In this document: piece after piece, positions 25,251-62,550 of the stretch | How positions within the stretch are numbered: position 1 is the stretch's first letter | Layout: every line of letters begins with the position of its first letter | Assembly: GCA_964457085.1 (NCBI GenBank) | Contig: CAYWDM010000002.1 | Span: 203,418-267,417 of the forward strand | Origin: an uncultured Pseudomonadales bacterium | GTDB taxonomy: Bacteria > Patescibacteriota > Microgenomatia > UBA1400 > PJMF01 | DNA length: 64,000 nucleotides | Direction: 5' to 3' | Notes under the pieces: generated by a model | What the model was told of the DNA's origin: nothing | Databases searched by the model: none | Seen by the model: the letters and a program-made list of their open reading frames with translations, nothing else | Program-made: the position numbers and the translations under genes

Positions 25251-25337
25251 GGAAGCGTCGCATAGTGGCCTAGTGCAGCGGGTTGCTAACCCGCGGTATC
25301 GAAAGATGCCTCGTGGGTTCGAATCCCTCCGCTTCCG
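25251..25337 (+). tRNA. tRNA-Ser (anticodon GCU), class II with long variable arm; CCA not encoded
   Basis: Hand-folded: acceptor GGAAGCG/CGCTTCC, 3-bp D stem, anticodon stem GCGGG/CCCGC with loop TTGCTAA, an 18-nt variable arm, and T arm GTGGG-TTCGAAT-CCCTC (one U-U mismatch). Confidence 0.7.
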
Positions 25338-25470
25338 CACCGTTTTTCAATCCTGCGAAGCAGGTATTGGAAGACGGTATGAATTGGATGAGAAAGCAAG
25401 GTACCTCGCCAAGCGAGTACTTTGATATAAGTCATAATCGAGCCTGGAAAGGTAAATCCCTCCGCTTCCG

Positions 25471-25509
25471 CTGTATATCTAAACTGCCGTTGGCAGCTTA
25501 GATATACAG
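25471..25509. repeat. near-perfect 18-bp-stem palindrome
   Basis: ctgtatatctaaactgcc-gtt-ggcagcttagatatacag has a single mismatch. Confidence 0.6.
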
Positions 25510-25529
25510 TTGAGTTAGCTAAGTAATTC

Positions 25530-25605
25530 TTTGATCCTGCCGGCAAGAGCAGAGCTCCTGCCTAATGCCGCGAAGCGGCCTCCGCTTCCGCACTCAATTT
25601 TTTTG
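25530..25605 (+). other. element A: conserved tRNA-adjacent RNA-like motif plus terminator
   Basis: CCTGCCGGCAAG...CTGCCTAATGCC-GCGAAGCGG-CCTCCGCTTCCGCAC (the last 15 nt match the tRNA 3' end), followed by a T-run. It is related to elements B and C at 56057 and 56607. Confidence 0.5.
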
Positions 25606-52789: not shown

Positions 52790-53059
52790 ATATTTTGAAA
52801 AGCGTTTGAGTCTATCGCAATAGATGAGCAGCGTAGCAGAAAGCCATTTGTGGCATAACTACGACGGAAGTCCACCGTAAAATCAGACAAGGAGTGTCGG
52901 CAACGGAGCTCTGAAATAAGGTTTGACCACTTGTTTTCAGTTGTTCCGCCGTAAGGCGGATTTTTAGTGGTAAAACAAAGAAGGGTGGTACCGCGACATG
53001 ACAGTCGCCCCTTTCAATCTTTAGGCATTTTCCTAGAGGTTGGGAGGGGCGATTTTTTT
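52790..53059 (+). promoter_or_regulatory. T-box riboswitch leader upstream of argH-argG
   Basis: Conserved T-box sequence AAGGGTGGTACCGCG at 52981-52995; a terminator hairpin cgcccct...aggggcg plus T-run at 53006-53059 overlaps it; a GATGAG K-turn-like start sits near 52828. Confidence 0.65.
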
Positions 53060-54424
53060 ATGAAAAAATTATGGCAAAAAGATTGGCAACTAAATGTTGT
53101 GATCGAAGCATTTGAAACGAGCGGTGATTTACTGCTGGATCAAATGTTGGTTGAGTCAGATGTATTTGGGTCGCTGGCACATGCAAAAGGATTGAAAAAA
53201 AGTGGCATTCTGAGTCAACAGGAATTATCAAAAATAATACTGGGATTACAGCAAATAATCCAATTAAATCAACAGGGCAAATTTCAGCTTGTTGCCGGTG
53301 ATGAGGATATTCATACTAAAATTGAAAATTATTTATTAGAATCATTTGGTGAAGTAGGCAAGAAAATTCATACCGGTAGATCTAGAAATGATCAGGTGCT
53401 TACAGCAATTAGACTTTTTACCAATGAGCAGTTGCTGCTGATTTGGGATGCGTTGTTGGTGCTAATACAAACGTTATTAGTTTTCTCAAAACAGCATGAA
53501 TTCGATGTTATTTCTGGATATACCCATACGCAGAAGGCAATGCCATCTACTGTAGGCATGTGGTCAACTGCTTTGGTTGAGGGATTATTTGACAGTCTAC
53601 TTTCATTGAAGTCAGCTTATGAATTAAACAATCAGTCACCATTGGGGTCAGCAGCAGGTTATGGAATTCCACTGAGAATTGATAGAGAGTATACGGCGAA
53701 ATTGTTGGGGTTCAAAAAAGTTCAAGCAAATTCGTTGTATTGCCAAAATTCTAGAGGAAAAATCGAGGCCATAATTCTTGCTTCGTTGATCTCAATTTTG
53801 CAGGACATCAATAAATTTGCTACAGATGTGGTTTTGTTTTCAACTTCCGAATTTGGATATTTTGCTGTAGCCAAAGAACTGTGTACTGGTAGCAGCATCA
53901 TGCCACAAAAGAAAAATGTTGACGTGGCTGAATTACTACGGAGCAAATTGCATTTAGTGGTGGGCAACTATATGCAAATGGTAGGACTATCTGCAAATTT
54001 ATTGTCTGGTTACAACCGAGATTTTCAAGATAGTAAAAAACCATTATTTGAAAGTTTGGCAATTACACTGGGCTCGCTTAAGGTGGCGACAATTTTGGTG
54101 AATGGGATCAATGTTAACCTGCAAGCATTGCAAAAGTCGCTCACTCCGGAAATTTTTGCCACCCATCAGGCTCTAGATTTGGTTGCACATGGCATGCCAT
54201 TTCGAAGTGCTTATCAACAGGCTGGTAAGGATATTATGACGATTAAGTTCGACCCTATTAGTGCTGTTAAAAAGTCTACACATATTGGTAGCACAGGCAA
54301 CTTAGGACTTAAACAACTGTCAAAGTTGCGTCAAAAAGAGTCGGCTTTTTTTAAAATCGAAACAACTGCTTACTGTACAAATAAAAATAATCTTTTAGAA
54401 AAGGATACTAATAATGAAAAATAA
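53060..54424 (+). CDS. argH: argininosuccinate lyase
   Basis: Signature GSSIMPQKKNVD. The start is revised to ATG 53060, just after the leader terminator and preceded by GGAGGGG. Confidence 0.9.
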   Translation: MKKLWQKDWQLNVVIEAFETSGDLLLDQMLVESDVFGSLAHAKGLKKSGILSQQELSKIILGLQQIIQLNQQGKFQLVAGDEDIHTKIENYLLESFGEVGKKIHTGRSRNDQVLTAIRLFTNEQLLLIWDALLVLIQTLLVFSKQHEFDVISGYTHTQKAMPSTVGMWSTALVEGLFDSLLSLKSAYELNNQSPLGSAAGYGIPLRIDREYTAKLLGFKKVQANSLYCQNSRGKIEAIILASLISILQDINKFATDVVLFSTSEFGYFAVAKELCTGSSIMPQKKNVDVAELLRSKLHLVVGNYMQMVGLSANLLSGYNRDFQDSKKPLFESLAITLGSLKVATILVNGINVNLQALQKSLTPEIFATHQALDLVAHGMPFRSAYQQAGKDIMTIKFDPISAVKKSTHIGSTGNLGLKQLSKLRQKESAFFKIETTAYCTNKNNLLEKDTNNEK

Positions 54425-55664
54425 AACAAATTATATTAAGGCTGCTTCGTACGAAGCAAAAATTGGCGAAGTAAAAAATATTTTACTGCTCTATTCTGGC
54501 GGACTAGACACAAGTGTGATGCTGAAGTGGATACAAGATCAGTATCATGCCGATGTGATAGCTCTGACTCTAGATATCGGTCAGCAGCATGATGATCTGG
54601 AGAAAGTTCGGCTCAAAGCACTTAAGCTGGGAGCAGTCAAAGTAATTATGCTAGATGCTAAAGACGAATTTGCTAATGAGTTTTTGTCTCATGGTATTAA
54701 GGCGAACGCTAGCTATCAAGGTGACTACCATTTATCAACTCCAATTGGTCGGGCTATTTTGGCAAAAAAAGCTGTGGAAATAGCGAAGCAAGAAAACGCA
54801 GACTGCATTGCACATGGGTGCACCGGTAAGGGCAACGATCAAGTTAGAATTGAAGGATACGCTCTTACTCTGAATCCTGCAATTAAAATAATTGCACCAG
54901 TGCGAGAATGGGCGATGGACAGAAATGAGGAAATTGCATACGCTAAAAAGCACGGCATTGAAGTCCCAACCTCAATTGATTTTCCGTATAGTGTTGATGA
55001 CAATATGTGGGGGATGACTTGGGAAGGTGGTGAGATCGAGGAGCCAGAAATTATTTCTCCAATTGAGAAATTTTTGACCACGTATACGTTAGCAAAGAAC
55101 GCTTCAAATGATGGTGAGCTAATCAACTTAGAATTTTATCAAGGTTTACCCATCTCATTAAATGGCCAACAGTTGTCACTTGCTGATTTAATTATCAAAC
55201 TAAATACTTTGGCAGGTAAACACGGAGTTGGGGTAACTCACATGTTTGAGGATAGATTAGTGGGAGTTAAAAATGGTGGTGTGTATGAACTCCCTGCGGC
55301 TCATGTGATTATAGAGGCACATAAGGCTTTGGAAAAATATGTTAGCACCAGACAACTTAATGAGCTAAAAGCTACTATGGACATCAAGTGGGGCTACTTG
55401 TGTTACGGTGCATTGTGGTACGACCCAATCATGAGTGCACTGAATGCTTTTAATGACTTTGTAAATCAAAAAGTTACTGGTAAAGTCACCATCAAGCTTT
55501 TTAAGGGGAGTGTCACTGTGGTGGCAATGGAGTCTGCGTATGGTTTAGATCATGCCTCATTTAATAACTTGGGTGGATATAACTTCAATGTGAACGCAAG
55601 TGCAGGTTTTGCAGAAATATATTCACTGCAGATGAAGTTAGCTAATCAAGTGCTTGTGCCGTGA
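54414..55664 (+). CDS. argG: argininosuccinate synthase
   Basis: LLYSGGLDTSV signature; 11-nt overlap with argH. Confidence 0.9.
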   Translation: MKNKTNYIKAASYEAKIGEVKNILLLYSGGLDTSVMLKWIQDQYHADVIALTLDIGQQHDDLEKVRLKALKLGAVKVIMLDAKDEFANEFLSHGIKANASYQGDYHLSTPIGRAILAKKAVEIAKQENADCIAHGCTGKGNDQVRIEGYALTLNPAIKIIAPVREWAMDRNEEIAYAKKHGIEVPTSIDFPYSVDDNMWGMTWEGGEIEEPEIISPIEKFLTTYTLAKNASNDGELINLEFYQGLPISLNGQQLSLADLIIKLNTLAGKHGVGVTHMFEDRLVGVKNGGVYELPAAHVIIEAHKALEKYVSTRQLNELKATMDIKWGYLCYGALWYDPIMSALNAFNDFVNQKVTGKVTIKLFKGSVTVVAMESAYGLDHASFNNLGGYNFNVNASAGFAEIYSLQMKLANQVLVP

Positions 55665-55714
55665 TCTTTTGACAGTGAACAAAACTAGAGTGCGGGCTTA
55701 AGTGACGCTAAAAC

Positions 55715-55834
55715 TTAGTCGTCAAATGGTTCATACTCTTTTTGTCTGGCATCGGTGTAGGTCTCGGTTTTGGCTGTGACCTTCAAAACACCGATTTTCT
55801 TCAAAAACGCCATCAGTTTTTGGAATATGTTCAT
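55715..55834 (-). CDS. possible 39-aa small protein
   Basis: Manual translation gives MNIFQKLMAFLKKIGVLKVTAKTETYTDARQKEYEPFDD; no other support. Confidence 0.2.
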   Translation of the reverse strand: MNIFQKLMAFLKKIGVLKVTAKTETYTDARQKEYEPFDD

Positions 55835-55927
55835 GTGGCAATCATAGCACTGTTACTTACTCAAGTGATTTGATACAATTCTGATGTTTTGATTGGCCAC
55901 TCTGATGGCATAATCAAAGTCACAATT

Positions 55928-56015
55928 GGAGAGGTCGCATAGTGGCCTAGTGCAGCAGTTTACTAAACTGCCGTATCGCAAGATACCCAGGGTTCGAATC
56001 CCTGCCTCTCCGCCA
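55928..56015 (+). tRNA. class-II tRNA, Ser-like paralog with atypical anticodon loop UUACUAA (anticodon ACU); CCA encoded
   Basis: Acceptor GGAGAGG/CCTCTCC, the same D arm as the tRNA at 25251, anticodon stem GCAGT/ACTGC, a 16-nt variable arm, and T arm CAGGG-TTCGAAT-CCCTG followed by GCCA. Confidence 0.65.
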
Positions 56016-56027
56016 GATAAAAACTAA

Positions 56028-56052
56028 GCCCGCAATAGCGGGTTTTATTTTT
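56028..56052 (+). terminator. terminator after tRNA
   Basis: gcccgc-aata-gcgggt is followed by tttattttt. Confidence 0.7.
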
Positions 56053-56056
56053 ATCT

Positions 56057-56170
56057 GATGGAACTTGGAAGTGACTTCCTTAAATCCTGCCGGCAAGCGA
56101 ATTGGTGTTATTGGTGGGGAACTAAACTAACAAACGCCTGCCTAATGCCGGAACGGCCAGCCTCTCCGCA
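56057..56170 (+). repeat. element B: conserved structured repeat (GATGGAAC-GGAAGtgaCTTCC-CCTGCCGGCAAGCGAA...CTGCCTAATGCCGGAACGGCC...GCCTCTCCGCA)
   Basis: Shares a conserved core with elements A and C; compensatory changes relative to C support RNA helices. Confidence 0.55.
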
Positions 56171-56252
56171 ACCATTGGTTTCCATCAAAATAGCAGCTTT
56201 ATTTGATGCCAGTGCTATACTTTCACTTAAGTACTATTTTATTTCTTTTTTT

Positions 56253-56462
56253 ATGTCAGAAATATCTCGATTTCAAGGACTAAAGCTTAAAGACTTAAGC
56301 GATGCTGATGCTGAGAAAGTATTGGTTGAAGCAGGTTTCCCAGCCGGAAGTGCAAGAATAGCTAAGTCAGGATGGTCGGGCAATACTGAAGTGAATCCAA
56401 TAGCATTAGCGACGCTTTTGGCTGGAGCTATAGCAGAAGCTGAAGCACAGTCACACAAGTAG
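56253..56462 (+). CDS. small hypothetical protein (69 aa)
   Basis: The track ORF from 56058 overlaps element B, so it is trimmed to the first downstream ATG (MSEISRFQGLKLKDL...). Confidence 0.35.
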   Translation: MSEISRFQGLKLKDLSDADAEKVLVEAGFPAGSARIAKSGWSGNTEVNPIALATLLAGAIAEAEAQSHK

Positions 56463-56550
56463 ACAGCTGGTTAGTTATTTTTCGCTGTTAACGCTCGCGT
56501 TATTTCTGCGTGAATAAATCACCACTCTTAGCTAAAATATTTCCAACAGC

Positions 56551-56600
56551 TACCCAGGCACTCCGCCAAGTACAGAAAACCCGCGTATGCGGGACTTTTT
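56551..56600 (+). repeat. degenerate copy of tRNA 3' end plus terminator preceding element C
   Basis: tacccaggcactccgccaag matches the tRNA T-arm/acceptor (acccagg...ctccgcca); it is followed by cccgc-gtat-gcggg and acttttt. Confidence 0.5.
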
Positions 56601-56606
56601 GTACTT

Positions 56607-56706
56607 GATGGAACAAGGAAGAGACTTCCATAAATTCTGCTGGCAAGCGAACGGTGGGGAAGGTATATAAAACGTCTGCCTAATGCCAGAATGGCGTGCC
56701 TCTCAA
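56607..56706 (+). repeat. element C: second copy of structured repeat
   Basis: GATGGAAC-GGAAGagaCTTCC-TCTGCTGGCAAGCGAA...CTGCCTAATGCCAGAATGGCG-TGCCTCTC. Confidence 0.55.
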
Positions 56707-56780
56707 TACATTAACTAATGGTTGGGATGCTGTATATGCATACATAATTAAGCTATCATTGGTGGAATTAGGAAAGAACC

Positions 56781-57509
56781 ATGTCTGAAACAATTGAAGT
56801 GGCCGGCTTACAAACTCCAAGTGTTGAAGTAGAATTTAAAATAGGCACCACACCAGAGATGGCAGCTGAATTCTCAGTGAGGTTGATGGATGAAATTTTG
56901 CTCTATCTTGAGACGGAGGCACAACAGGGAGAGAAGCCGACAGTACTCGGCGGATTTTGGGTAGATACCCCAGGTGGAGAGATGGATCACATCAATTTAA
57001 GTTTTGCCAAAACCACTTATATTGGAAATCTAACCAACACAGCAAGACTTTGCGGTGTGAGATTGGTTGGTCCAGTTGAAGCAGAGCGCATCGGGAGAAT
57101 TACTGATGCAAAGCTTGCTATTAAAATTATCCCTATTCTAAAAGAAAAGTTGTCGCCAAAGCTGCTTGGTATGCTTGAAGCTACTTTGCCAAAAATTGGT
57201 GAATTACTCAAATCAACTCTTCGAAACAGAGAAATTTTAGAAAATGAGGTGTCAAATCGTCCTGGTGCACACAAAATTGATATAAAAAGAGTCTTGGCAT
57301 CTGTTTTTTCTCCTTTGCAGCCTATTTTTGAGCGTAAACCAAAGCCTCAAAAAATTGATGATGATGAGGAGTTACCAAAAGTTGCAGTTGAAGTTGTTTT
57401 TGAAAAAAGTCGCGGTACACTGAGTTCAGGTAAGAAACAAAGGTTATATTTGATAAAAACATTTCCTCTCAAGCAATTAGAAGAAAAAATGACTGAAGAA
57501 TGGAATTAG
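56781..57509 (+). CDS. hypothetical protein
   Basis: 242-aa soluble protein with no recognised motif. Confidence 0.5.
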   Translation: MSETIEVAGLQTPSVEVEFKIGTTPEMAAEFSVRLMDEILLYLETEAQQGEKPTVLGGFWVDTPGGEMDHINLSFAKTTYIGNLTNTARLCGVRLVGPVEAERIGRITDAKLAIKIIPILKEKLSPKLLGMLEATLPKIGELLKSTLRNREILENEVSNRPGAHKIDIKRVLASVFSPLQPIFERKPKPQKIDDDEELPKVAVEVVFEKSRGTLSSGKKQRLYLIKTFPLKQLEEKMTEEWN

Positions 57510-57690
57510 GTGGTAAATCTTTGGCTGAAATCGTTTCAACAGTCGACCACGCTTTTTACCACTTTTCATTGAAAAAATGAATAGGTTCTTAAGTACTGCT
57601 CCAGGCAATCTCTGTCCCCTCCATATTATCAGTGCATGATGGGGTCCAAGAATTCTTATGAATTTATCTAGATTTTTTCTAATTTATTTT

Positions 57691-58443
57691 TTATTCATTA
57701 AAAAGTTCGATGGGGTTAATTTTGAACTGGAGCATATTGGCAGTATTCCTACCACCATCACCACCTTTTCGCTGCATTGTTACTTTACCTATTTTAAGAC
57801 TTCCTAAATGAGTTACTACAACATCACCTTTACTATATGTGTTCAAAACAGAATTCATGTTTTTAAGAACCCATTTTGTACTATTTCCCACCTTAACTGC
57901 AACAAGCATCCAATTGGCAGAAAACTGTCCATTTCCCTTTAAAATATCGGCAATGACAAGAGTTTTTTTATCTGTAAAGAATGTTACGACTGCAGCTTGC
58001 TCTTCAAAAGAGAGTTCATTTAAAAATACTCGTCTCTCATCTCTTCCTTTAATACTTGGGGCAATTTCACCAGTGAATCTCATTAATACATTCTCTATCT
58101 GAATAGGCATATCCCACATTGAGACATAATTCTTAACCCATCTCTTATCTACTTGATTAAATCCGGTTGGATTACTCACCAGTTTTATGGAAATATTTTG
58201 TTCATCAGCAACTTCTTTAGAGGAAGTAGTTATCTGAACTTGAACATCAGTCTTATACCCATGAAGTTTGATGGCAATTATTTTTTTAATTTCAGCCAAC
58301 TCATATCCCATTATTTTCAACCACACTTGTGCGTCATGATCAGATTTCCAGTTATTGAATTTAGCAACGATATCATCCTCATTCGAAAAACCATTTTTCG
58401 CTGTAGTTGATCCTAGTTCAATCAGTGCATCTTTATTTCTCAT
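57691..58443 (-). CDS. putative type II restriction endonuclease (cognate to adjacent C5-methyltransferase)
   Basis: Immediately downstream of the dcm-like gene on the same strand, overlapping it by 11 nt. No homology could be verified by eye. Confidence 0.45.
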   Translation of the reverse strand: MRNKDALIELGSTTAKNGFSNEDDIVAKFNNWKSDHDAQVWLKIMGYELAEIKKIIAIKLHGYKTDVQVQITTSSKEVADEQNISIKLVSNPTGFNQVDKRWVKNYVSMWDMPIQIENVLMRFTGEIAPSIKGRDERRVFLNELSFEEQAAVVTFFTDKKTLVIADILKGNGQFSANWMLVAVKVGNSTKWVLKNMNSVLNTYSKGDVVVTHLGSLKIGKVTMQRKGGDGGRNTANMLQFKINPIELFNE

Positions 58444-59437
58444 TTGTATTCTTTTCTACTGTTATTATTATTTGATTAAGAATCGCTTTTAAAACATCAA
58501 CTACAACACTATTGCCAAATTGCTTATACGCTTGAGCATCGGTAACCGGTATTTTAAAATTTTCTCCAAATCCCATTATATTTGCACACTCTCTTGGAGT
58601 TAACTTTCGAATTAAGCCATCGATCAGATATGCTCCTGTCTTACTTGCGGCACCACCGCCATACGCAGAGAATGTAATTGCATGGCCAAGTGGACTATAT
58701 ATCCGCTCTCCTTGTCCACCCTTGCCAATGGTACCAATTCTAATGGGTTTTTGTGGATATTTACCATAAATATCTGGGAATATCTCAACATTCTTAAGTC
58801 TTATGTCATCTCTCTTAATAATACATTTAGCATTTTGGTCAACTTTTTCAAGAAAATCCAACACTTTATGATGCGAAACAATTGGATCTGGATAGGTGAA
58901 GTTCTTTATTCCCAGATCCTTTCTAAAGCAGATTATGTAGATTCTTTCTCTTGCTGTTGGAGCTCCATAATGACTAGCGTTAAGAACCTTATGGTTAACA
59001 TCGTAACCAATTTCTTCTAAGGTTTTCACAACTGTTTGAAGAGTTTTCCCATTATCGTGTTTACCAAAGTTCTTTACATTCTCCAAAAATAATATTTCAG
59101 GCTTATGCTGTTTGGCTATTCGTGCAATATGAAAAAATAATGTTCCACGAGTATCTTCAAAACCTCTTCTTTTGCCTGAAATGCTAAATGCCTGACAGGG
59201 AAATCCAGCACATATGATGTTGTGTTCTGGAATTGTTTTCTCGTCAACTTTTGTAATATCTCCGTCAGGATTGTCGCCATAATTAGCAACATACGTTTTC
59301 TGTGCAAATGTATCCCATTCAGATGAGTAAACGCACTGCAAACCACGCGATTCCAATGCTGCTCTAAAACCACCTATACCTGCAAACAAGTCGATGAACT
59401 TTGCACTTTTTATATCAAATTTATTTCGATTTTTCAC
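58433..59437 (-). CDS. DNA (cytosine-5)-methyltransferase
   Basis: Motif I FIDLFAGIGGF, motif IV GFPCQAFS, motif VI ENVKNF, and a C-terminal QFGNSV. Confidence 0.9.
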   Translation of the reverse strand: MKNRNKFDIKSAKFIDLFAGIGGFRAALESRGLQCVYSSEWDTFAQKTYVANYGDNPDGDITKVDEKTIPEHNIICAGFPCQAFSISGKRRGFEDTRGTLFFHIARIAKQHKPEILFLENVKNFGKHDNGKTLQTVVKTLEEIGYDVNHKVLNASHYGAPTARERIYIICFRKDLGIKNFTYPDPIVSHHKVLDFLEKVDQNAKCIIKRDDIRLKNVEIFPDIYGKYPQKPIRIGTIGKGGQGERIYSPLGHAITFSAYGGGAASKTGAYLIDGLIRKLTPRECANIMGFGENFKIPVTDAQAYKQFGNSVVVDVLKAILNQIIITVEKNTNEK

Positions 59438-59560
59438 TGTAATATCCTACCATGTGGCTTTTTTATTAGTGAAAGGAGACCAAGTGATTCACTCTTGTGA
59501 TTCATGATTCACTGGTTCGTAACTGTGTGTAGAATAATGCCAGAGATGCAAAGTATTTTT

Positions 59561-59875
59561 TTAGTCAGCCTTATCTCGTTTTTTTTCTAAACCTTCAACA
59601 AACGCTATCATATCAGTATCGTTAACTGTCATTCTTGTTTCACGACTTCCACTTCTAATACGTTGGCTTGCCATTGAAATACGCTGACCAGCCATTGCAA
59701 AACGTGATTTATATCCTTCAAATATTCCTCTATTTTTTTCATTCAGTGCTGGCAATTTAAATACTCGTTCTGCCCAAGTAGTCGACGTAAAGGTAATACC
59801 ATCACCATATCTTTCACTCATAACATTTACTATAGCAGCTTGTAGCAATTTCACACCGCGTTTTTCGCCATCACA
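59561..59875 (-). pseudogene. degraded vsr-like (very short patch repair endonuclease) remnant
   Basis: The in-frame upstream extension reads ...IFCDGEKRG (compare Vsr xIFVDGCFWH), then TSTTWAERVFKLPALNEKNRG (compare P.TN..FW..K...N..RD) and GQRISMASQ (compare GWRVLIVWE). The active-site FWH is lost and the N-terminus is truncated by the terminator. Confidence 0.3.
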
Positions 59876-59892
59876 AAAAATCCCGCTGTAGC
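59865..59892. terminator. bidirectional terminator (serves eno on minus strand)
   Basis: aaaaaatcccgc-tgta-gcggga is followed by ttttta. Confidence 0.7.
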
Positions 59893-59923
59893 GGGATTTT
59901 TATACTCTAATAAAACTCTAGCT

Positions 59924-61210
59924 TTATTTCTTGAATGGAAACACAAAATAGCGAGCTTTATCACCTAATTGACGCTCAATTCTCATCAGGCGGTTGTATT
60001 TAGCAACGCGCTCACTTCTAGCTGGAGCACCAGTCTTGATTTGGCCAGTTCCCATGGCAACCACAAAATCAGCAATGAAAGTGTCTTCAGTTTCACCGCT
60101 ACGATGTGAGACAACTGAGGTCATGCCATGCTTGCGAGCAAGCAGAATTGCATCAATGGTTTCAGTCAGTGTCCCAATTTGATTAAGTTTAATCAAAATT
60201 GAGTTTGCTGCTTTGTTATCAATACCTTTTTGCAAGCGACTGACATTTGTGACATATAGGTCATCACCCATGATTTGTACATGAGAGCCAATCTCGGCAG
60301 TCATCTTCTGGAATCCAGACCAGTCGTCTTCAGCAAAGATGTCTTCACAGGAAACGATAGGGTATTTTGCTATTAATTGCTTAAAGAACTCAGCGAGTTC
60401 ATCACTGGATACTGTCTTACCTTCCTTCTTCAAGGTATAGCTGCCATCTTTGTAGAATTCAGTGGCTGCTGGGTCAATTCCGAATGAAATATCTTTTCCA
60501 AGTTCATAGCCGGCTTTTTTAATGGCTTCGGACATAAGTTGGAAAGGTTCTTCGTTGGAAACCGAGTTGGGAGCGTAGCCGCCTTCATCACCCACACTAA
60601 TGGCATATCCTTTAGCTTTCAGAATACCTTTGAGTTGCTGGTAGACCTCAGCGTTCATCCGAACTGCCTCAACCACATTTTTTGCCCCAATAGGGAACAG
60701 CATGTACTCTTGGATATCAGTTGCCCAGTTAGCATGTTTACCACCGTTCATGACATTCATTTCTGGAATAGGCATGATGTAGGTACCATCGAAATCAGGG
60801 TTGAACTTGGTCAGGTATACGTATAGCTCTTTCTTTTCAGATGTAGCTTGAGCACGAGCAGCACTCAGTGATACAGCTAAAATGGCATTAGCACCAAGTT
60901 TGGCTTTATTTGCGGTACCATCCAGCTTAATCATTGTTTCATCTAACAGACGTTGGTCTGCTGCATCAAGACCGATCACTGCTGGAGCAATGATGGTATT
61001 AACATTGGCAACTGCTGTGAGCACACCGGTTCCTAGAAATCGAGTGGAGTCACCATCTCGAAGCTCTACGGCCTCATATTGGCCAGTTGATGCTCCAGAG
61101 GGAACAGCTGCCCAGCCAGTTGAGCCATCTTCCAATGTGACAACTGCTTCGACAGTGGGATTTCCACGACTATCTAAAATTTCTTGTGCTTGAACGGATA
61201 CAATTTTCAT
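59924..61210 (-). CDS. eno: enolase (phosphopyruvate hydratase)
   Basis: [24 protein letters not shown], catalytic-loop residues SHRSGETED and the [10 protein letters not shown] block. Confidence 0.95.
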
Positions 61211-62166: not shown

Positions 62167-62550
62167 CTACAGTTCCAGATCGTCTCTGACCACGGTCACT
62201 CCTTTCGGATGACCTTCCAAGGTGAACTGGAAGGAGTCGTGATGAGTTTGTCTCGGCAAAACTGTCATCCAGATTTGGTCGTTGCCGAGGTCTACCAGCA
62301 TGCTCATGCAGTCACCTGAGTGGCTTGCACGTGCAAGCATCTCGCGAGTGACATCACCGCAATCAAACAACCCAGTGACCATGTGTTGTTCAACCTGCAA
62401 TTCGATGATGCTAATCTGCAACTCACTCTCGGCAATTTGCCGAGTGAGGTGCCGATATGCAGCCGTGACTTGAGCCAGGGTCTTGGGACTAACGGGCTTG
62501 AGGTACATGCCATTGAACTTGAGAACGTCATCTTCAATTCGCCAATCCAT
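62167..62550 (-). CDS. hypothetical protein (127 aa), locally GC-rich
   Basis: Single ORF; GC is visibly above the window average. Confidence 0.45.
   Translation of the reverse strand: MDWRIEDDVLKFNGMYLKPVSPKTLAQVTAAYRHLTRQIAESELQISIIELQVEQHMVTGLFDCGDVTREMLARASHSGDCMSMLVDLGNDQIWMTVLPRQTHHDSFQFTLEGHPKGVTVVRDDLEL

What the first reader, a model, noticed from the sequence alone, without database searches (positions are those of the whole stretch)
56016..59900. tRNA-linked island with a restriction-modification module and a decayed vsr between argG and eno
Downstream of the atypical tRNA lie two copies of a tRNA-3'-end/terminator/element repeat and two hypothetical ORFs. On the opposite strand a Dcm-type C5-methyltransferase overlaps by 11 nt a 250-aa ORF best read as its restriction endonuclease. 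A vsr-like remnant follows with recognisable IF.DG, TxTxW..K...N..R and G.R[VI] blocks but the catalytic FWH lost. Dcm methyltransferases commonly travel with vsr, and restriction-modification systems often sit in tRNA-integrated islands. The housekeeping genes argG and eno flank the island.
Basis: partly seen in the sequence, partly recalled or inferred. Interest (0 to 1): 0.55.

Follow-up and report, generated by a model that had tools for sequence, protein, structure and literature searches.

The report
GCGC restriction-modification genes beside tRNA-Ser repeats
An uncultured Patescibacteria (Microgenomates) genome carries an ordinary, apparently working HinP1I/HhaI-type restriction-modification pair that targets GCGC; there is no decayed vsr gene, but the repeat next to the tRNA belongs to a small undescribed family of structured elements tied to tRNA-Ser genes.

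Summary
M (58433-59437, -) overlaps R (57691-58443, -) by 11 nt. M is 57% identical to M.HhaI, including its target-recognition loops. R is 50% identical to R.HinP1I, with the catalytic and GCGC-contacting residues kept. GCGC is the most depleted 4-mer palindrome in the window (observed/expected 0.31, against 1.04 in 59 related loci), so a GCGC system has acted on this lineage for a long time.

The "vsr remnant" (97-aa ORF, 59561-59854) is not supported. It has no Vsr Pfam match and only chance similarity to E. coli Vsr. It is an ORFan with coding-like codon bias.

Whether the region is an island cannot be settled. It has no integrase and no clear distal repeat, its composition deviates only mildly, and no close relative exists for an empty-site test.

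The two repeat copies are real (about 85% identical). They belong to a rare family ("E") found after tRNA-Ser(ACU), tRNA-Ser(GCU) and tRNA-Ser(GGA) genes in a few related metagenomic genomes. E has two covarying hairpins and a 3' tail that copies the neighbouring tRNA's acceptor strand. The "atypical" tRNA-Ser(ACU) is itself a conserved, widespread gene.

The R-M module is a new member of a known kind. E is the part worth following up.

The parts
54414..55664 (+). argG (argininosuccinate synthase), left housekeeping flank
   Evidence: Pfam Arginosuc_synth on the called gene; 68-80% identical to ArgG of 80 Patescibacteria MAGs
55928..56015 (+). tRNA-Ser, anticodon ACU, class II, encoded CCA
   Evidence: ARAGORN; Rfam tRNA 52 bits; same tRNA type intact in 77 of 80 metagenome loci, 64 distinct sequences
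56026..56045 (.). terminator hairpin after the tRNA, terminator-like on both strands
   Evidence: one search lists it on + (56026-56045) and - (56042-56029)
56016..56171 (.). repeat element E, copy A (structured core 56078-56171). It ends in GCCTCTCCGCAA, a copy of the tRNA 3' end
   Evidence: covariance model hit of 62.8 bits; tail matches own tRNA 13/15
56253..56462 (+). 69-aa hypothetical ORF (orf69); reality uncertain
   Evidence: no Pfam, NCBIfam, PADLOC or PHROG hit; not searched in the large protein databases
56553..56568 (+). relic of the tRNA 3' end (13/16 identical) that precedes copy B
   Evidence: 3 matches in the window against 0.17 expected
56569..56709 (.). repeat element E, copy B (core 56628-56709), with its own terminator hairpin at 56580-56593
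   Evidence: covariance model hit of 54.4 bits
56781..57509 (+). 242-aa protein of unknown function. It belongs to a tiny family
   Evidence: only a self-hit in 5.8 billion proteins; two distant homologues at 37% and 34% in 1.8 billion representatives; no family hit; AlphaFold2 pLDDT 50
57691..58443 (-). R: HinP1I-family type IIP restriction endonuclease (predicted G^CGC)
   Evidence: PF11463 E=1.8e-77; PADLOC REase_II E=6e-95; PDB 1ynm E=6e-79, 50% identity. E22, D66, S85-x-K87, Q97, K100 and K226 correspond to HinP1I E18, D62, Q81-x-K83, Q93, K96 and K223
58433..59437 (-). M: M.HhaI-like C5-cytosine methyltransferase (predicted GmCGC)
   Evidence: PF00145 E=9e-93; TIGR00675; PDB 10mh E=4e-119, 57% identity over residues 10-321, including the GKGGQGERIYS and SAYGGG recognition loops
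59561..59854 (-).
   Evidence: GC3 0.19 and host-like synonymous codon score; AlphaFold2 model all-helical but of low confidence
59877..59900 (-). terminator hairpin of eno
   Evidence: sequence read; weak HMM match to the terminator part of E
59924..61210 (-). eno (enolase), right housekeeping flank
   Evidence: Pfam Enolase_N and Enolase_C on the called gene
25457..25592 (.). third copy of element E in the window. It lies 118 nt after tRNA-Ser(GCU) (25251-25338) and is flanked on both sides by copies of that tRNA's 3' end
   Evidence: nhmmer E=5.8e-6; covariance model hit of 66.2 bits; sequence read; tail matches the GCU tRNA 14/15

Best explanation
The core of the region is a two-gene type IIP restriction-modification operon on the minus strand. 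An M.HhaI-like C5-methyltransferase methylates the inner cytosine of GCGC. A monomeric HinP1I-family endonuclease nicks both strands of unmethylated GCGC, predicted as G^CGC. The 11-nt M-R overlap implies co-transcription and probably coupled translation (inferred). The system, or a predecessor with the same specificity, has been active in this Microgenomates lineage long enough to remove about two thirds of the expected GCGC sites. No vsr gene or remnant accompanies it. The 97-aa ORF upstream of M and the 242-aa and 69-aa ORFs on the other strand are lineage-specific genes of unknown function. The module lies 1.7 kb downstream of a conserved chromosomal tRNA-Ser(ACU) gene. That gene's 3' flank carries two tandem copies of a tRNA-Ser-associated structured element, E. 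The whole 3.9-kb interval is probably a variable, accreted region, but no mobility machinery or clean borders are detectable.
For: Identity and specificity of R and M:
- Family and structure matches are full length and highly significant.
- The catalytic and GCGC-contacting residues named for HinP1I and M.HhaI in PMC7026639 are conserved here and in 17 homologues.
- The M-R order and the 11-nt overlap are the same in the closest relatives, L087-L090.

Activity over time:
- GCGC is observed 30 times against 95.6 expected (ratio 0.31), the lowest of all 16 palindromic 4-mers. Every 8-kb bin is below expectation.
- In 59 related loci the pooled ratio is 1.04 and the minimum is 0.66.

No vsr.

ORFans.

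The tRNA is conserved in the lineage.

Element E.
Against: - Activity is inferred from sequence and site depletion only. There is no methylome or enzymology.
- The catalytic Q81 of HinP1I is serine here, although S-x-K is the rule in 15 of 17 close homologues.
- GCGC depletion could stem from another or an earlier GCGC system in the genome, or from 5mC deamination rather than selection.
- The GC of R and M is at the low edge of the host range (z -2.1 and -1.7), so later acquisition of this particular copy is not excluded.
Confidence: 0.75

Rival explanations
1. A genomic island integrated site-specifically into the 3' end of the tRNA, bounded by att repeats. It brought in the two ORFs, the R-M pair and a vsr gene that has since decayed.
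For: - A 16-nt relic of the tRNA 3' end lies at 56553-56568.
- R, M and ORF97 share low GC3 of 0.27, 0.26 and 0.19, against a host mean of 0.36.
- The closest R-M relatives sit in mobile contexts with a transposase or T4SS genes.
- The same tRNA-Ser 3' end is an attachment site of IMG/VR proviruses.
- The genes between tRNA-Ser(ACU) and eno differ in L153.
Against: - No integrase family matched any island ORF.
- No significant distal repeat was found. The best candidate, 57599-57625, reaches only the 99th percentile of background.
- The repeat extends about 150 nt beyond the tRNA, and it also follows tRNA-Ser genes in housekeeping contexts elsewhere.
- vsr is not detectable.
- argG-eno adjacency is not ancestral in any of 80 relatives.
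- Genome-wide GCGC depletion argues for long residence.
Confidence: 0.15
2. Cassette accretion. E is the recombination site of small integrase-dependent or single-strand-recombining cassettes that insert at tRNA-Ser 3' ends and duplicate them. On this reading E_A+orf69 and E_B+orf242, and possibly the R-M block, are successive cassettes. They would resemble CIME/ICE accretion arrays or integron cassettes, and the recombinase would be encoded elsewhere.
For: - Every E copy is flanked by copies of the local tRNA's 3' end, and these co-vary between the ACU, GCU and GGA tRNAs.
- L142 has tandem and partial copies with a small ORF between them.
- Some copies are attached only to truncated tRNA relics (L203; winG in this window).
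- ORFan cargo lies between the copies in this window.
- The hairpins have variable loops, as in folded recombination sites.
Against: - No recombinase lies near any copy, and the neighbours elsewhere are housekeeping genes.
- No copy was found in IMG/VR or by exact pattern in JGI metagenomes.
- No terminal inverted repeats were seen.
- The distal border of the putative R-M cassette is not significant.
Confidence: 0.3
3. E is a small RNA gene, probably transcribed from the minus strand, convergent with the tRNA and ending at the shared bidirectional terminator. Its 5' segment would be complementary to the 3' acceptor strand of the neighbouring tRNA-Ser. It would therefore act on that tRNA or its precursor. 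The two copies here would result from a local duplication.
For: - Two helices are supported by covariation: 90.9% of cells paired, 6 of 11 pairs changed on both sides, 0 of 500 shuffles as high, and slid controls at or below 0.086 against 0.495.
- The conserved A.C in helix P1 on the + strand is a G.U on the - strand in 8 of 9 copies.
- The hairpins between the tRNA and E are terminator-like on both strands.
- Conserved unpaired motifs are present, and the P1 loop ranges from 3 to 35 nt.
Against: - Single-sequence folding energies are not better than shuffles (z between -1.1 and +0.4).
- No promoter was identified, and there are no expression data.
- The structure was derived from these same sequences, with the P1 loops trimmed for alignment.
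- Only about 7 independent lineages are available.
Confidence: 0.35
4. The R-M pair is no longer functional: either an orphan methylase with a dead nuclease, or both genes inactive.
For: - Q81 of HinP1I is replaced by Ser.
- The small third ORF that follows R in relatives is missing here.
Against: - Both ORFs are intact and full length.
- All other catalytic and recognition residues are kept, and S-x-K is typical of the subfamily.
- GCGC avoidance is strong.
Confidence: 0.08

Closest known systems
HinP1I restriction-modification system of Haemophilus influenzae P1 (R.HinP1I, PDB 1YNM/2FKC), with M.HhaI of H. haemolyticus as the structural reference for the methylase
   Same: - Same two-gene makeup.
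- R matches the R-HINP1I family end to end (50% identity). It has the S/T-D...x-K active site and the Q93, K96 and K223 equivalents that read GCGC.
- M is 57% identical to M.HhaI, including the target-recognition loops (Q237 and R240 equivalents).
- The predicted site is GCGC.
   Different: - The host is an uncultured Patescibacterium.
- The middle catalytic residue is Ser instead of Gln, as in most CPR homologues.
- The cleavage position and the methylated base have not been measured.
Vsr very-short-patch repair endonuclease (Pfam PF03852), as paired with Dcm in E. coli
   Same: Only the context: a small ORF lies next to a C5-methyltransferase.
   Different: - No sequence similarity.
- No FWH/D51/H69 catalytic core.
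- The predicted structure is all-helical (low confidence).
- No vsr was found anywhere in the 64-kb window, nor next to the R-M of relatives.
tRNA-gene-integrated genomic islands and ICE/CIME accretion arrays (cis-mobilisable elements flanked by att sites, described for the Streptococcus thermophilus ICESt1/ICESt3 family; recalled from memory)
   Same: - Repeated copies of a tRNA 3' end downstream of an intact tRNA.
- Tandem units with small cargo ORFs.
- R-M as typical cargo.
   Different: - No integrase or excisionase.
- The repeats are bipartite, with a tRNA-end copy on both sides of a 100-155-nt structured core.
- The same core follows three different tRNA-Ser isoacceptors, with matching ends.
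- In other genomes the element sits among housekeeping genes.
Integron attC sites and clusters of attC sites lacking an integrase (CALINs)
   Same: - Structure rather than sequence is conserved.
- The hairpins have variable-length loops.
- They alternate with short ORFan genes.
   Different: - No IntI.
- No R''/R' (RYYYAAC...GTTRRRY) core sites were seen by eye.
- The link to tRNA 3' ends is not an integron feature.
- This was not formally tested.

Membership tests
Type IIP R-M, HinP1I/HhaI specificity group (GCGC) | Endonuclease belongs to the R.HinP1I family over its full length | tested here: met
   PF11463 residues 45-248 of 250, E=1.8e-77; PDB 1ynm residues 3-246 of 247, E=6e-79, 50% identity
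Type IIP R-M, HinP1I/HhaI specificity group (GCGC) | PD-(D/E)XK-type catalytic residues present (HinP1I E18, D62, Q81-x-K83) | tested here: met
   E22, D66 and K87 are invariant. Q81 is Ser85, as in 15 of 17 aligned homologues. The residue roles are from memory of Yang et al. 2005 and from PMC7026639
Type IIP R-M, HinP1I/HhaI specificity group (GCGC) | Base-contacting residues for GCGC conserved in R (Q93, K96, K223) and in M (Q237, R240) | tested here: met
   Q97, K100 and K226 in R; GGQGERIY in M. The residues are named in PMC7026639
Type IIP R-M, HinP1I/HhaI specificity group (GCGC) | Cognate C5-methyltransferase adjacent, with motifs I, IV, VI, VIII and X | tested here: met
   PF00145 and TIGR00675 match over the full length. 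FAGIGGF, GFPCQAFS, ENVKN, RERIY and GNSV are present. The 11-nt overlap with R is shown
Type IIP R-M, HinP1I/HhaI specificity group (GCGC) | Host genome shows the footprint of the specificity (site avoidance) | tested here: met
   GCGC observed/expected 0.31 here, against 1.04 in relatives
Type IIP R-M, HinP1I/HhaI specificity group (GCGC) | Measured cleavage at G^CGC and methylation at GmCGC | not testable with these tools
   Needs enzymology or a methylome
Vsr endonuclease (PF03852) | Detectable match to the Vsr domain | tested here: not met
   No hit at E<=10 in the three minus frames of 59430-59930. tblastn and BLASTP with E. coli Vsr give chance hits only
Vsr endonuclease (PF03852) | Catalytic core (D51, FWH with H69, and the rest) or recognisable remains in the right order | tested here: not met
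tRNA-integrated genomic island | Integrase or recombinase gene next to the tRNA or within the island | tested here: not met
   None of the five ORFs matches an integrase in Pfam, NCBIfam, PADLOC or PHROGs
tRNA-integrated genomic island | Direct repeats of the tRNA 3' end at both borders | tested here: inconclusive
   Proximal relics lie at 56156-56171 and 56553-56568. The distal candidates (57599-57625 and about 59866-59877) are not above background
tRNA-integrated genomic island | Absent from the same site in close relatives | not testable with these tools
   The best ArgG relative is 80% identical. The Eno 90%-identity cluster has a single member. Synteny is scrambled in all relatives
tRNA-integrated genomic island | Deviant composition | tested here: inconclusive
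   R and M have GC z of -2.1 and -1.7 and GC3 z of -1.5 and -1.7, but a host-like synonymous codon score. orf242 is typical
Integron cassette array / CALIN | attC core sites (R'', L'', L', R') and IntI | not tested
   Inspected by eye only. No IntI-like ORF lies in the region
Controller (C) protein of R-M systems | Small HTH protein upstream of the R-M genes | tested here: not met
   ORF97 has no HTH family hit, and its AlphaFold2 model is uninformative

The most novel reading that the evidence does not exclude
Element E is a previously undescribed class of tRNA-Ser-linked element in a subclade of Microgenomates. Its structured core is 65-95 nt, with two covarying hairpins. Its end copies the acceptor strand of whichever tRNA-Ser gene (ACU, GCU or GGA) it follows; read on the other strand, the end is complementary to that acceptor strand. 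It would be one of two things. It could be a small RNA that pairs with the 3' end of its neighbouring tRNA. Or it could be the folded recombination site of miniature cassettes that home to tRNA-Ser 3' ends and build variable regions such as the one holding this R-M system.
Probability: 0.4. Interest if true: 0.65.

Novelty: new member of a known kind. Interest (0 to 1): 0.4.

Why it matters
**The R-M pair.** On its own it adds one more HinP1I-type system to several thousand known homologues. Two points are still useful:
- It predicts the methylation motif (GmCGC) and a restriction barrier for a lineage that nobody can yet transform.
- The roughly threefold, genome-specific GCGC depletion is a clean example of an R-M footprint in a CPR genome that has no Vsr. 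Selection against restriction sites and 5mC-deamination decay could be told apart there.

**By-products with more value.**
- tRNA-Ser(ACU), an A34 tRNA of a kind considered extremely rare in bacteria, is a conserved gene in many groundwater and sediment genomes.
- tRNA-Ser genes in one subclade carry a structured companion element whose end tracks the tRNA's acceptor stem. Depending on what that element is, it could reveal a new tRNA-directed small RNA or a new way of building variable regions next to tRNA genes.

Tried and rejected
- **Vsr.** A Pfam scan at E<=10 of the three minus frames, BLASTP and tblastn with E. coli Vsr over the island, the window and relatives' R-M loci all gave nothing above chance.
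- **Remnant of the 92-98-aa ORF that follows R in relatives.** A weak hit with composition statistics switched off (E=0.095) disappeared in a whole-window search. Rejected.
- **Logan contig L001 as evidence of island borders.** Its ends coincide with the tRNA and the eno terminator (window 55986-59900). The ends are explained by k-mers shared with other tRNA-Ser genes, and other runs break elsewhere. Rejected.
- **Synteny and empty-site test.** In 80 GTDB relatives around argG there is no tRNA and no eno within 10 kb. No closer relative exists.
- **Function of orf242 and ORF97.** Pfam, NCBIfam, PADLOC and PHROGs gave nothing. AlphaFold2 models had pLDDT 50 and 44, so no fold search was run.
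- **orf69 and orf242 as paralogues.** Only 5 of the first 11 residues match.
- **E as a protein-coding sequence.** The differences between the copies change the amino acid in both candidate frames (read).
- **E as a known RNA.** No Rfam match at E<=1.
- **E in viral or JGI collections by exact pattern.** No matches.
- **The 17-nt inverted repeat 57504-57520 / 59954-59970.** About one such repeat is expected by chance in this region (my estimate).
- **A distal tRNA-end relic.** The best score equals the 99th percentile of background.

Full report
**Organism and setting**

ArgG of the window is 68-80% identical to ArgG of 80 uncultured Patescibacteria, mostly Microgenomates (Roizman-, Davies- and Gottesmanbacteria MAGs). 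The window's own proteins occur only in one NCBI contig of 280 kb and in Logan assemblies of runs SRR12261223-25. The 90%-identity cluster of its enolase has a single member. No close relative is therefore available anywhere in the collections.

**What is in the sequence**

On the + strand:
- argH 52967-54424 and argG 54414-55664.
- A class II tRNA-Ser with anticodon ACU and an encoded CCA, at 55928-56015.
- A terminator hairpin at 56026-56045.
- Repeat copy A, up to 56171.
- A 69-aa ORF at 56253-56462.
- A 16-nt relic of the tRNA 3' end at 56553-56568, with 13 of 16 bases identical. The pattern matches 3 times in the window against 0.17 expected.
- Repeat copy B, up to 56709.
- A 242-aa ORF at 56781-57509.

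On the - strand:
- eno 59924-61210 and its terminator at 59877-59900.
- A 97-aa ORF at 59561-59854.
- M at 58433-59437 and R at 57691-58443. M and R overlap by 11 nt.

The two repeat copies align over about 165 nt with one 10-nt indel, at 83-86% identity in the gap-free blocks. The descriptive part of the finding is therefore confirmed, apart from the vsr remnant.

**The restriction-modification pair**

- R matches Pfam R-HINP1I (E=1.8e-77), the PADLOC type II REase model (E=6e-95), and the crystal-structure sequence of R.HinP1I over residues 3-246 of 247 (E=6e-79, 50% identity).
- M matches PF00145 and TIGR00675. It matches M.HhaI over residues 10-316 (E=4e-119, 57% identity), including the variable target-recognition region.
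- PMC7026639 states that HinP1I recognises G^CGC as a monomer. It reads the bases with Q93, K96 and K223, while M.HhaI uses Q237 and R240. The equivalents here are Q97, K100 and K226 in R and GGQGERIY in M. They are all present, and the R residues are invariant in 18 aligned family members.
- The catalytic E18, D62 and K83 equivalents (E22, D66, K87) are invariant. Q81 is Ser85, as in 15 of the 17 closest homologues, so this is a subfamily trait and not a lesion.
- The family has more than 3,500 members at E<=1e-10, many of them annotated in Patescibacteria. The nearest is 70% identical.
- In the nearest relatives, M and R have the same order and the same 11-nt overlap. They lie beside a transposase or conjugation genes. 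The pair is therefore a mobile two-gene cassette that is common in this phylum.

**Evidence that it works**

- GCGC occurs 30 times in 64 kb against 95.6 expected from a second-order Markov model (ratio 0.31).
- This is the lowest of all 16 palindromic 4-mers. The next lowest is GGCC at 0.74, and GGCC is also low (0.71) in relatives.
- Every 8-kb bin is below expectation.
- In 59 related loci of at least 10 kb the pooled GCGC ratio is 1.04 and the minimum is 0.66.

The depletion is thus specific to this genome. It implies long exposure to GCGC restriction and/or methylation. The deamination product GTGC/GCAC is relatively enriched under a mononucleotide model (1.27 here against 0.82 in relatives), but not under the Markov model. 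This is compatible with 5mC decay in the absence of Vsr, and it is only suggestive.

**The supposed vsr remnant**

- The three minus-strand frames of 59430-59930 give no Vsr hit in Pfam even at E<=10. The only hit is a sub-threshold PsbU match.
- The E. coli Vsr sequence I used is identical to PDB 1cw0. BLASTP against ORF97 aligns six residues, E=0.28.
- tblastn over 55600-60000, over the whole window and over relatives' R-M loci gives only chance hits at unrelated places.
- ORF97 has no homologue other than itself in 5.8 billion proteins.
- Its GC3 is 0.19 against an overall GC of 0.36, and its synonymous-codon score is host-like. That is what a real AT-rich coding ORF looks like.
- It has no HTH or other family match. 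Its AlphaFold2 model has low confidence (pLDDT 44) and is all-helical.

I conclude that ORF97 is an ORFan of unknown function, possibly co-transcribed with M and R. It is not a decayed vsr.

**The other ORFs**

- orf242 has only itself in the word-indexed search. It has two distant homologues (37% and 34% identity) in the exhaustive search of 1.8 billion representatives, both on short contigs without informative neighbours.
- It has no family match, and its AlphaFold2 model has pLDDT 50.
- orf69 has no family match and was not searched in the large databases. The 134-aa version overlaps the repeat and is probably a spurious extension.

**Is it an island?**

Evidence for:
- The tRNA-end relic.
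- The ORFan content.
- The low GC3 of R, M and ORF97.
- The mobile contexts of the closest R-M relatives.
- The same 26-nt tRNA-Ser 3' end occurs, with and without a whole tRNA, in 11 IMG/VR contigs. Such ends are therefore used as attachment sites.

Evidence against, or missing:
- There is no integrase.
- No distal repeat rises above background.
- R and M are only about 2 sd from the host GC mean and use host-preferred codons.
- None of 80 relatives has a tRNA or eno within 10 kb downstream of argG.
- In loci that share the tRNA, the gene for the DNA-alkylation-repair protein or eno lies nearby, but in other orders and orientations. No ancestral empty site can therefore be reconstructed.
- Logan contig L001 equals window 55986-59900 exactly, which looked like border evidence. 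Its left end is simply the 30-mer shared with other tRNA-Ser genes, and other runs break at other places. I do not count it.
- The GCGC footprint shows that GCGC restriction is old in this lineage.

My verdict is that this is a variable region next to a tRNA. An island in the strict sense is unproven.

**The tRNA is not aberrant**

- In the first 80 loci, 77 carry an intact class II tRNA with anticodon ACU.
- There are 64 distinct sequences, with compensatory changes in the acceptor, anticodon, variable and T stems.
- The tRNA often sits next to tRNA-Ser(GCU), (UGA), (CGA) or (GGA).

According to PMC11066159, A34 tRNAs other than tRNA-Arg are extremely rare in bacteria. This conserved tRNA-Ser(ACU) therefore deserves its own study.

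**The repeat element (E)**

Where it occurs:
- An HMM of the two copies found the same element directly after tRNA-Ser(ACU) in L142, L151, L157 and L207.
- It also lies directly after tRNA-Ser(GGA) in L151 and L219.
- It lies next to truncated tRNA relics in L203 and, in this window, 118 nt after tRNA-Ser(GCU) (25457-25592).
- In L136 it lies 680 nt upstream of the tRNA.
- A covariance model recovers exactly these copies in 1.6 Mb and nothing else.

Anatomy on the tRNA's strand, in order:
1. The tRNA 3' end.
2. A hairpin that is terminator-like on both strands.
3. The motif TTTAAATCCyGmC.
4. Helix P1 (GGCAAGnnn / nnnCCTGCC) with a loop of 3 to 35 nt.
5. TAAT.
6. A short hairpin, P2.
7. A 10-15-nt tail that repeats the acceptor 3' strand of the neighbouring tRNA.

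The tail co-varies with the tRNA type. It matches 13/15 for ACU, 14/15 for GCU and 12/15 for GGA, against 6-10/15 for mismatched pairs.

Structure:
- P1 and P2 are supported by covariation. 90.9% of cells are paired and 6 of 11 pairs change on both sides.
- The covariation score is 0.495, against 0.199 in shuffles (0 of 500 as high) and at most 0.086 in slid controls.
- Two caveats apply. The P1 loops were trimmed to align the copies, and the structure was derived from these same sequences.
- A conserved A.C in P1 on the + strand is a G.U on the - strand in 8 of 9 copies. This hints at an RNA made from the - strand, whose 5' part would be complementary to the tRNA's 3' end.
- Single-sequence folding energies are unremarkable.
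- Rfam has no match.
- Neighbouring genes in the other genomes are housekeeping genes, and none looks like a recombinase (read from the translations).

Two readings remain open, and I cannot decide between them:
- A small RNA gene tied to tRNA-Ser.
- The folded recombination site of miniature cassettes that home to tRNA-Ser 3' ends. On this reading E_A+orf69 and E_B+orf242 would be cassettes, and the R-M block possibly a third.

Either way, the repeat is a family feature of tRNA-Ser loci in a subclade. It is not simply an attL/attR pair of one island.

**Comparison with the known, and verdict**

The R-M pair passes every sequence-level test for the HinP1I/HhaI GCGC group, so it is a new member of a known kind. 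Vsr membership fails. Strict tRNA-island membership fails on the integrase test and is inconclusive on the other tests. The most novel reading that the evidence does not exclude concerns E. Overall interest is moderate. The item as reported is ordinary, but it led to two under-described features of CPR tRNA-Ser loci.

Noticed in passing
window 55928-56015; loci L104-L223: tRNA-Ser with anticodon ACU (A34) is a conserved, widespread gene in metagenomic, mostly CPR-type genomes. The pattern scan gave more than 120 hits. Of the 80 loci inspected, 77 hold an intact tRNA, with 64 distinct sequences and compensatory stem changes. It usually coexists with tRNA-Ser(GCU). Non-Arg A34 tRNAs are described as extremely rare in bacteria (PMC11066159).
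   Followed up: partly
window 25457-25592 (after tRNA-Ser(GCU) 25251-25338): A third copy of element E lies here, flanked on both sides by copies of the GCU tRNA's 3' end. The 118 nt between the tRNA and this copy may be a further degenerate copy.
   Followed up: partly
window 52796-53015 (+): A T-box-leader-like match lies upstream of argH-argG. It scores 43 bits, E=6e-7, below Rfam's gathering score of 93. The terminator/antiterminator end is well conserved. The specifier was not examined.
   Followed up: no
window 62167-62550 (-): A 127-aa ORF between the DNA-alkylation-repair gene and the aldo-keto reductase gene has GC 0.51 and GC3 0.60 (z=+4). It is the strongest compositional outlier near the region, has no family match, and was called as a gene in the Logan contigs.
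   Followed up: no
whole window: GCGC is about threefold depleted while CGCG and CCGG are not. The 5mC-deamination products GTGC/GCAC are relatively enriched under a mononucleotide model (1.27 against 0.82 in relatives). Eighteen of the 30 remaining GCGC sites lie between 6 and 21 kb.
   Followed up: partly
L087 6786-7082; L088 6771-7049 (also L089, L090): The closest HinP1I-type R-M modules carry a conserved 92-98-aa ORF of unknown function directly after R. The two versions are 33% identical to each other (E=4e-17). It is absent from the window.
   Followed up: partly
L093-L103 (IMG/VR): The 26-nt 3' end of this tRNA is identical in tRNA-Ser(GGA/UGA) genes and in tRNA fragments of 11 viral contigs. 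One 13.8-kb contig (L094) has it at both ends, like att sites of a provirus or a terminal repeat.
   Followed up: no
window 57599-57625 (+): A stretch between orf242 and R (GCTCCAGGCAATCTCTGTCCCCTCC) resembles a tRNA-Ser T-arm/acceptor 3' end. It is closest to the L151-type tRNA. Its score reaches only the 99th percentile of background.
   Followed up: partly
L142 844-1620: Downstream of tRNA-Ser(ACU) lies a tandem array: a full E, a second tRNA-end copy with a terminator, a 74-aa ORF, a partial E, a third tRNA-end copy, and a terminator about 85% identical to the first.
   Followed up: partly
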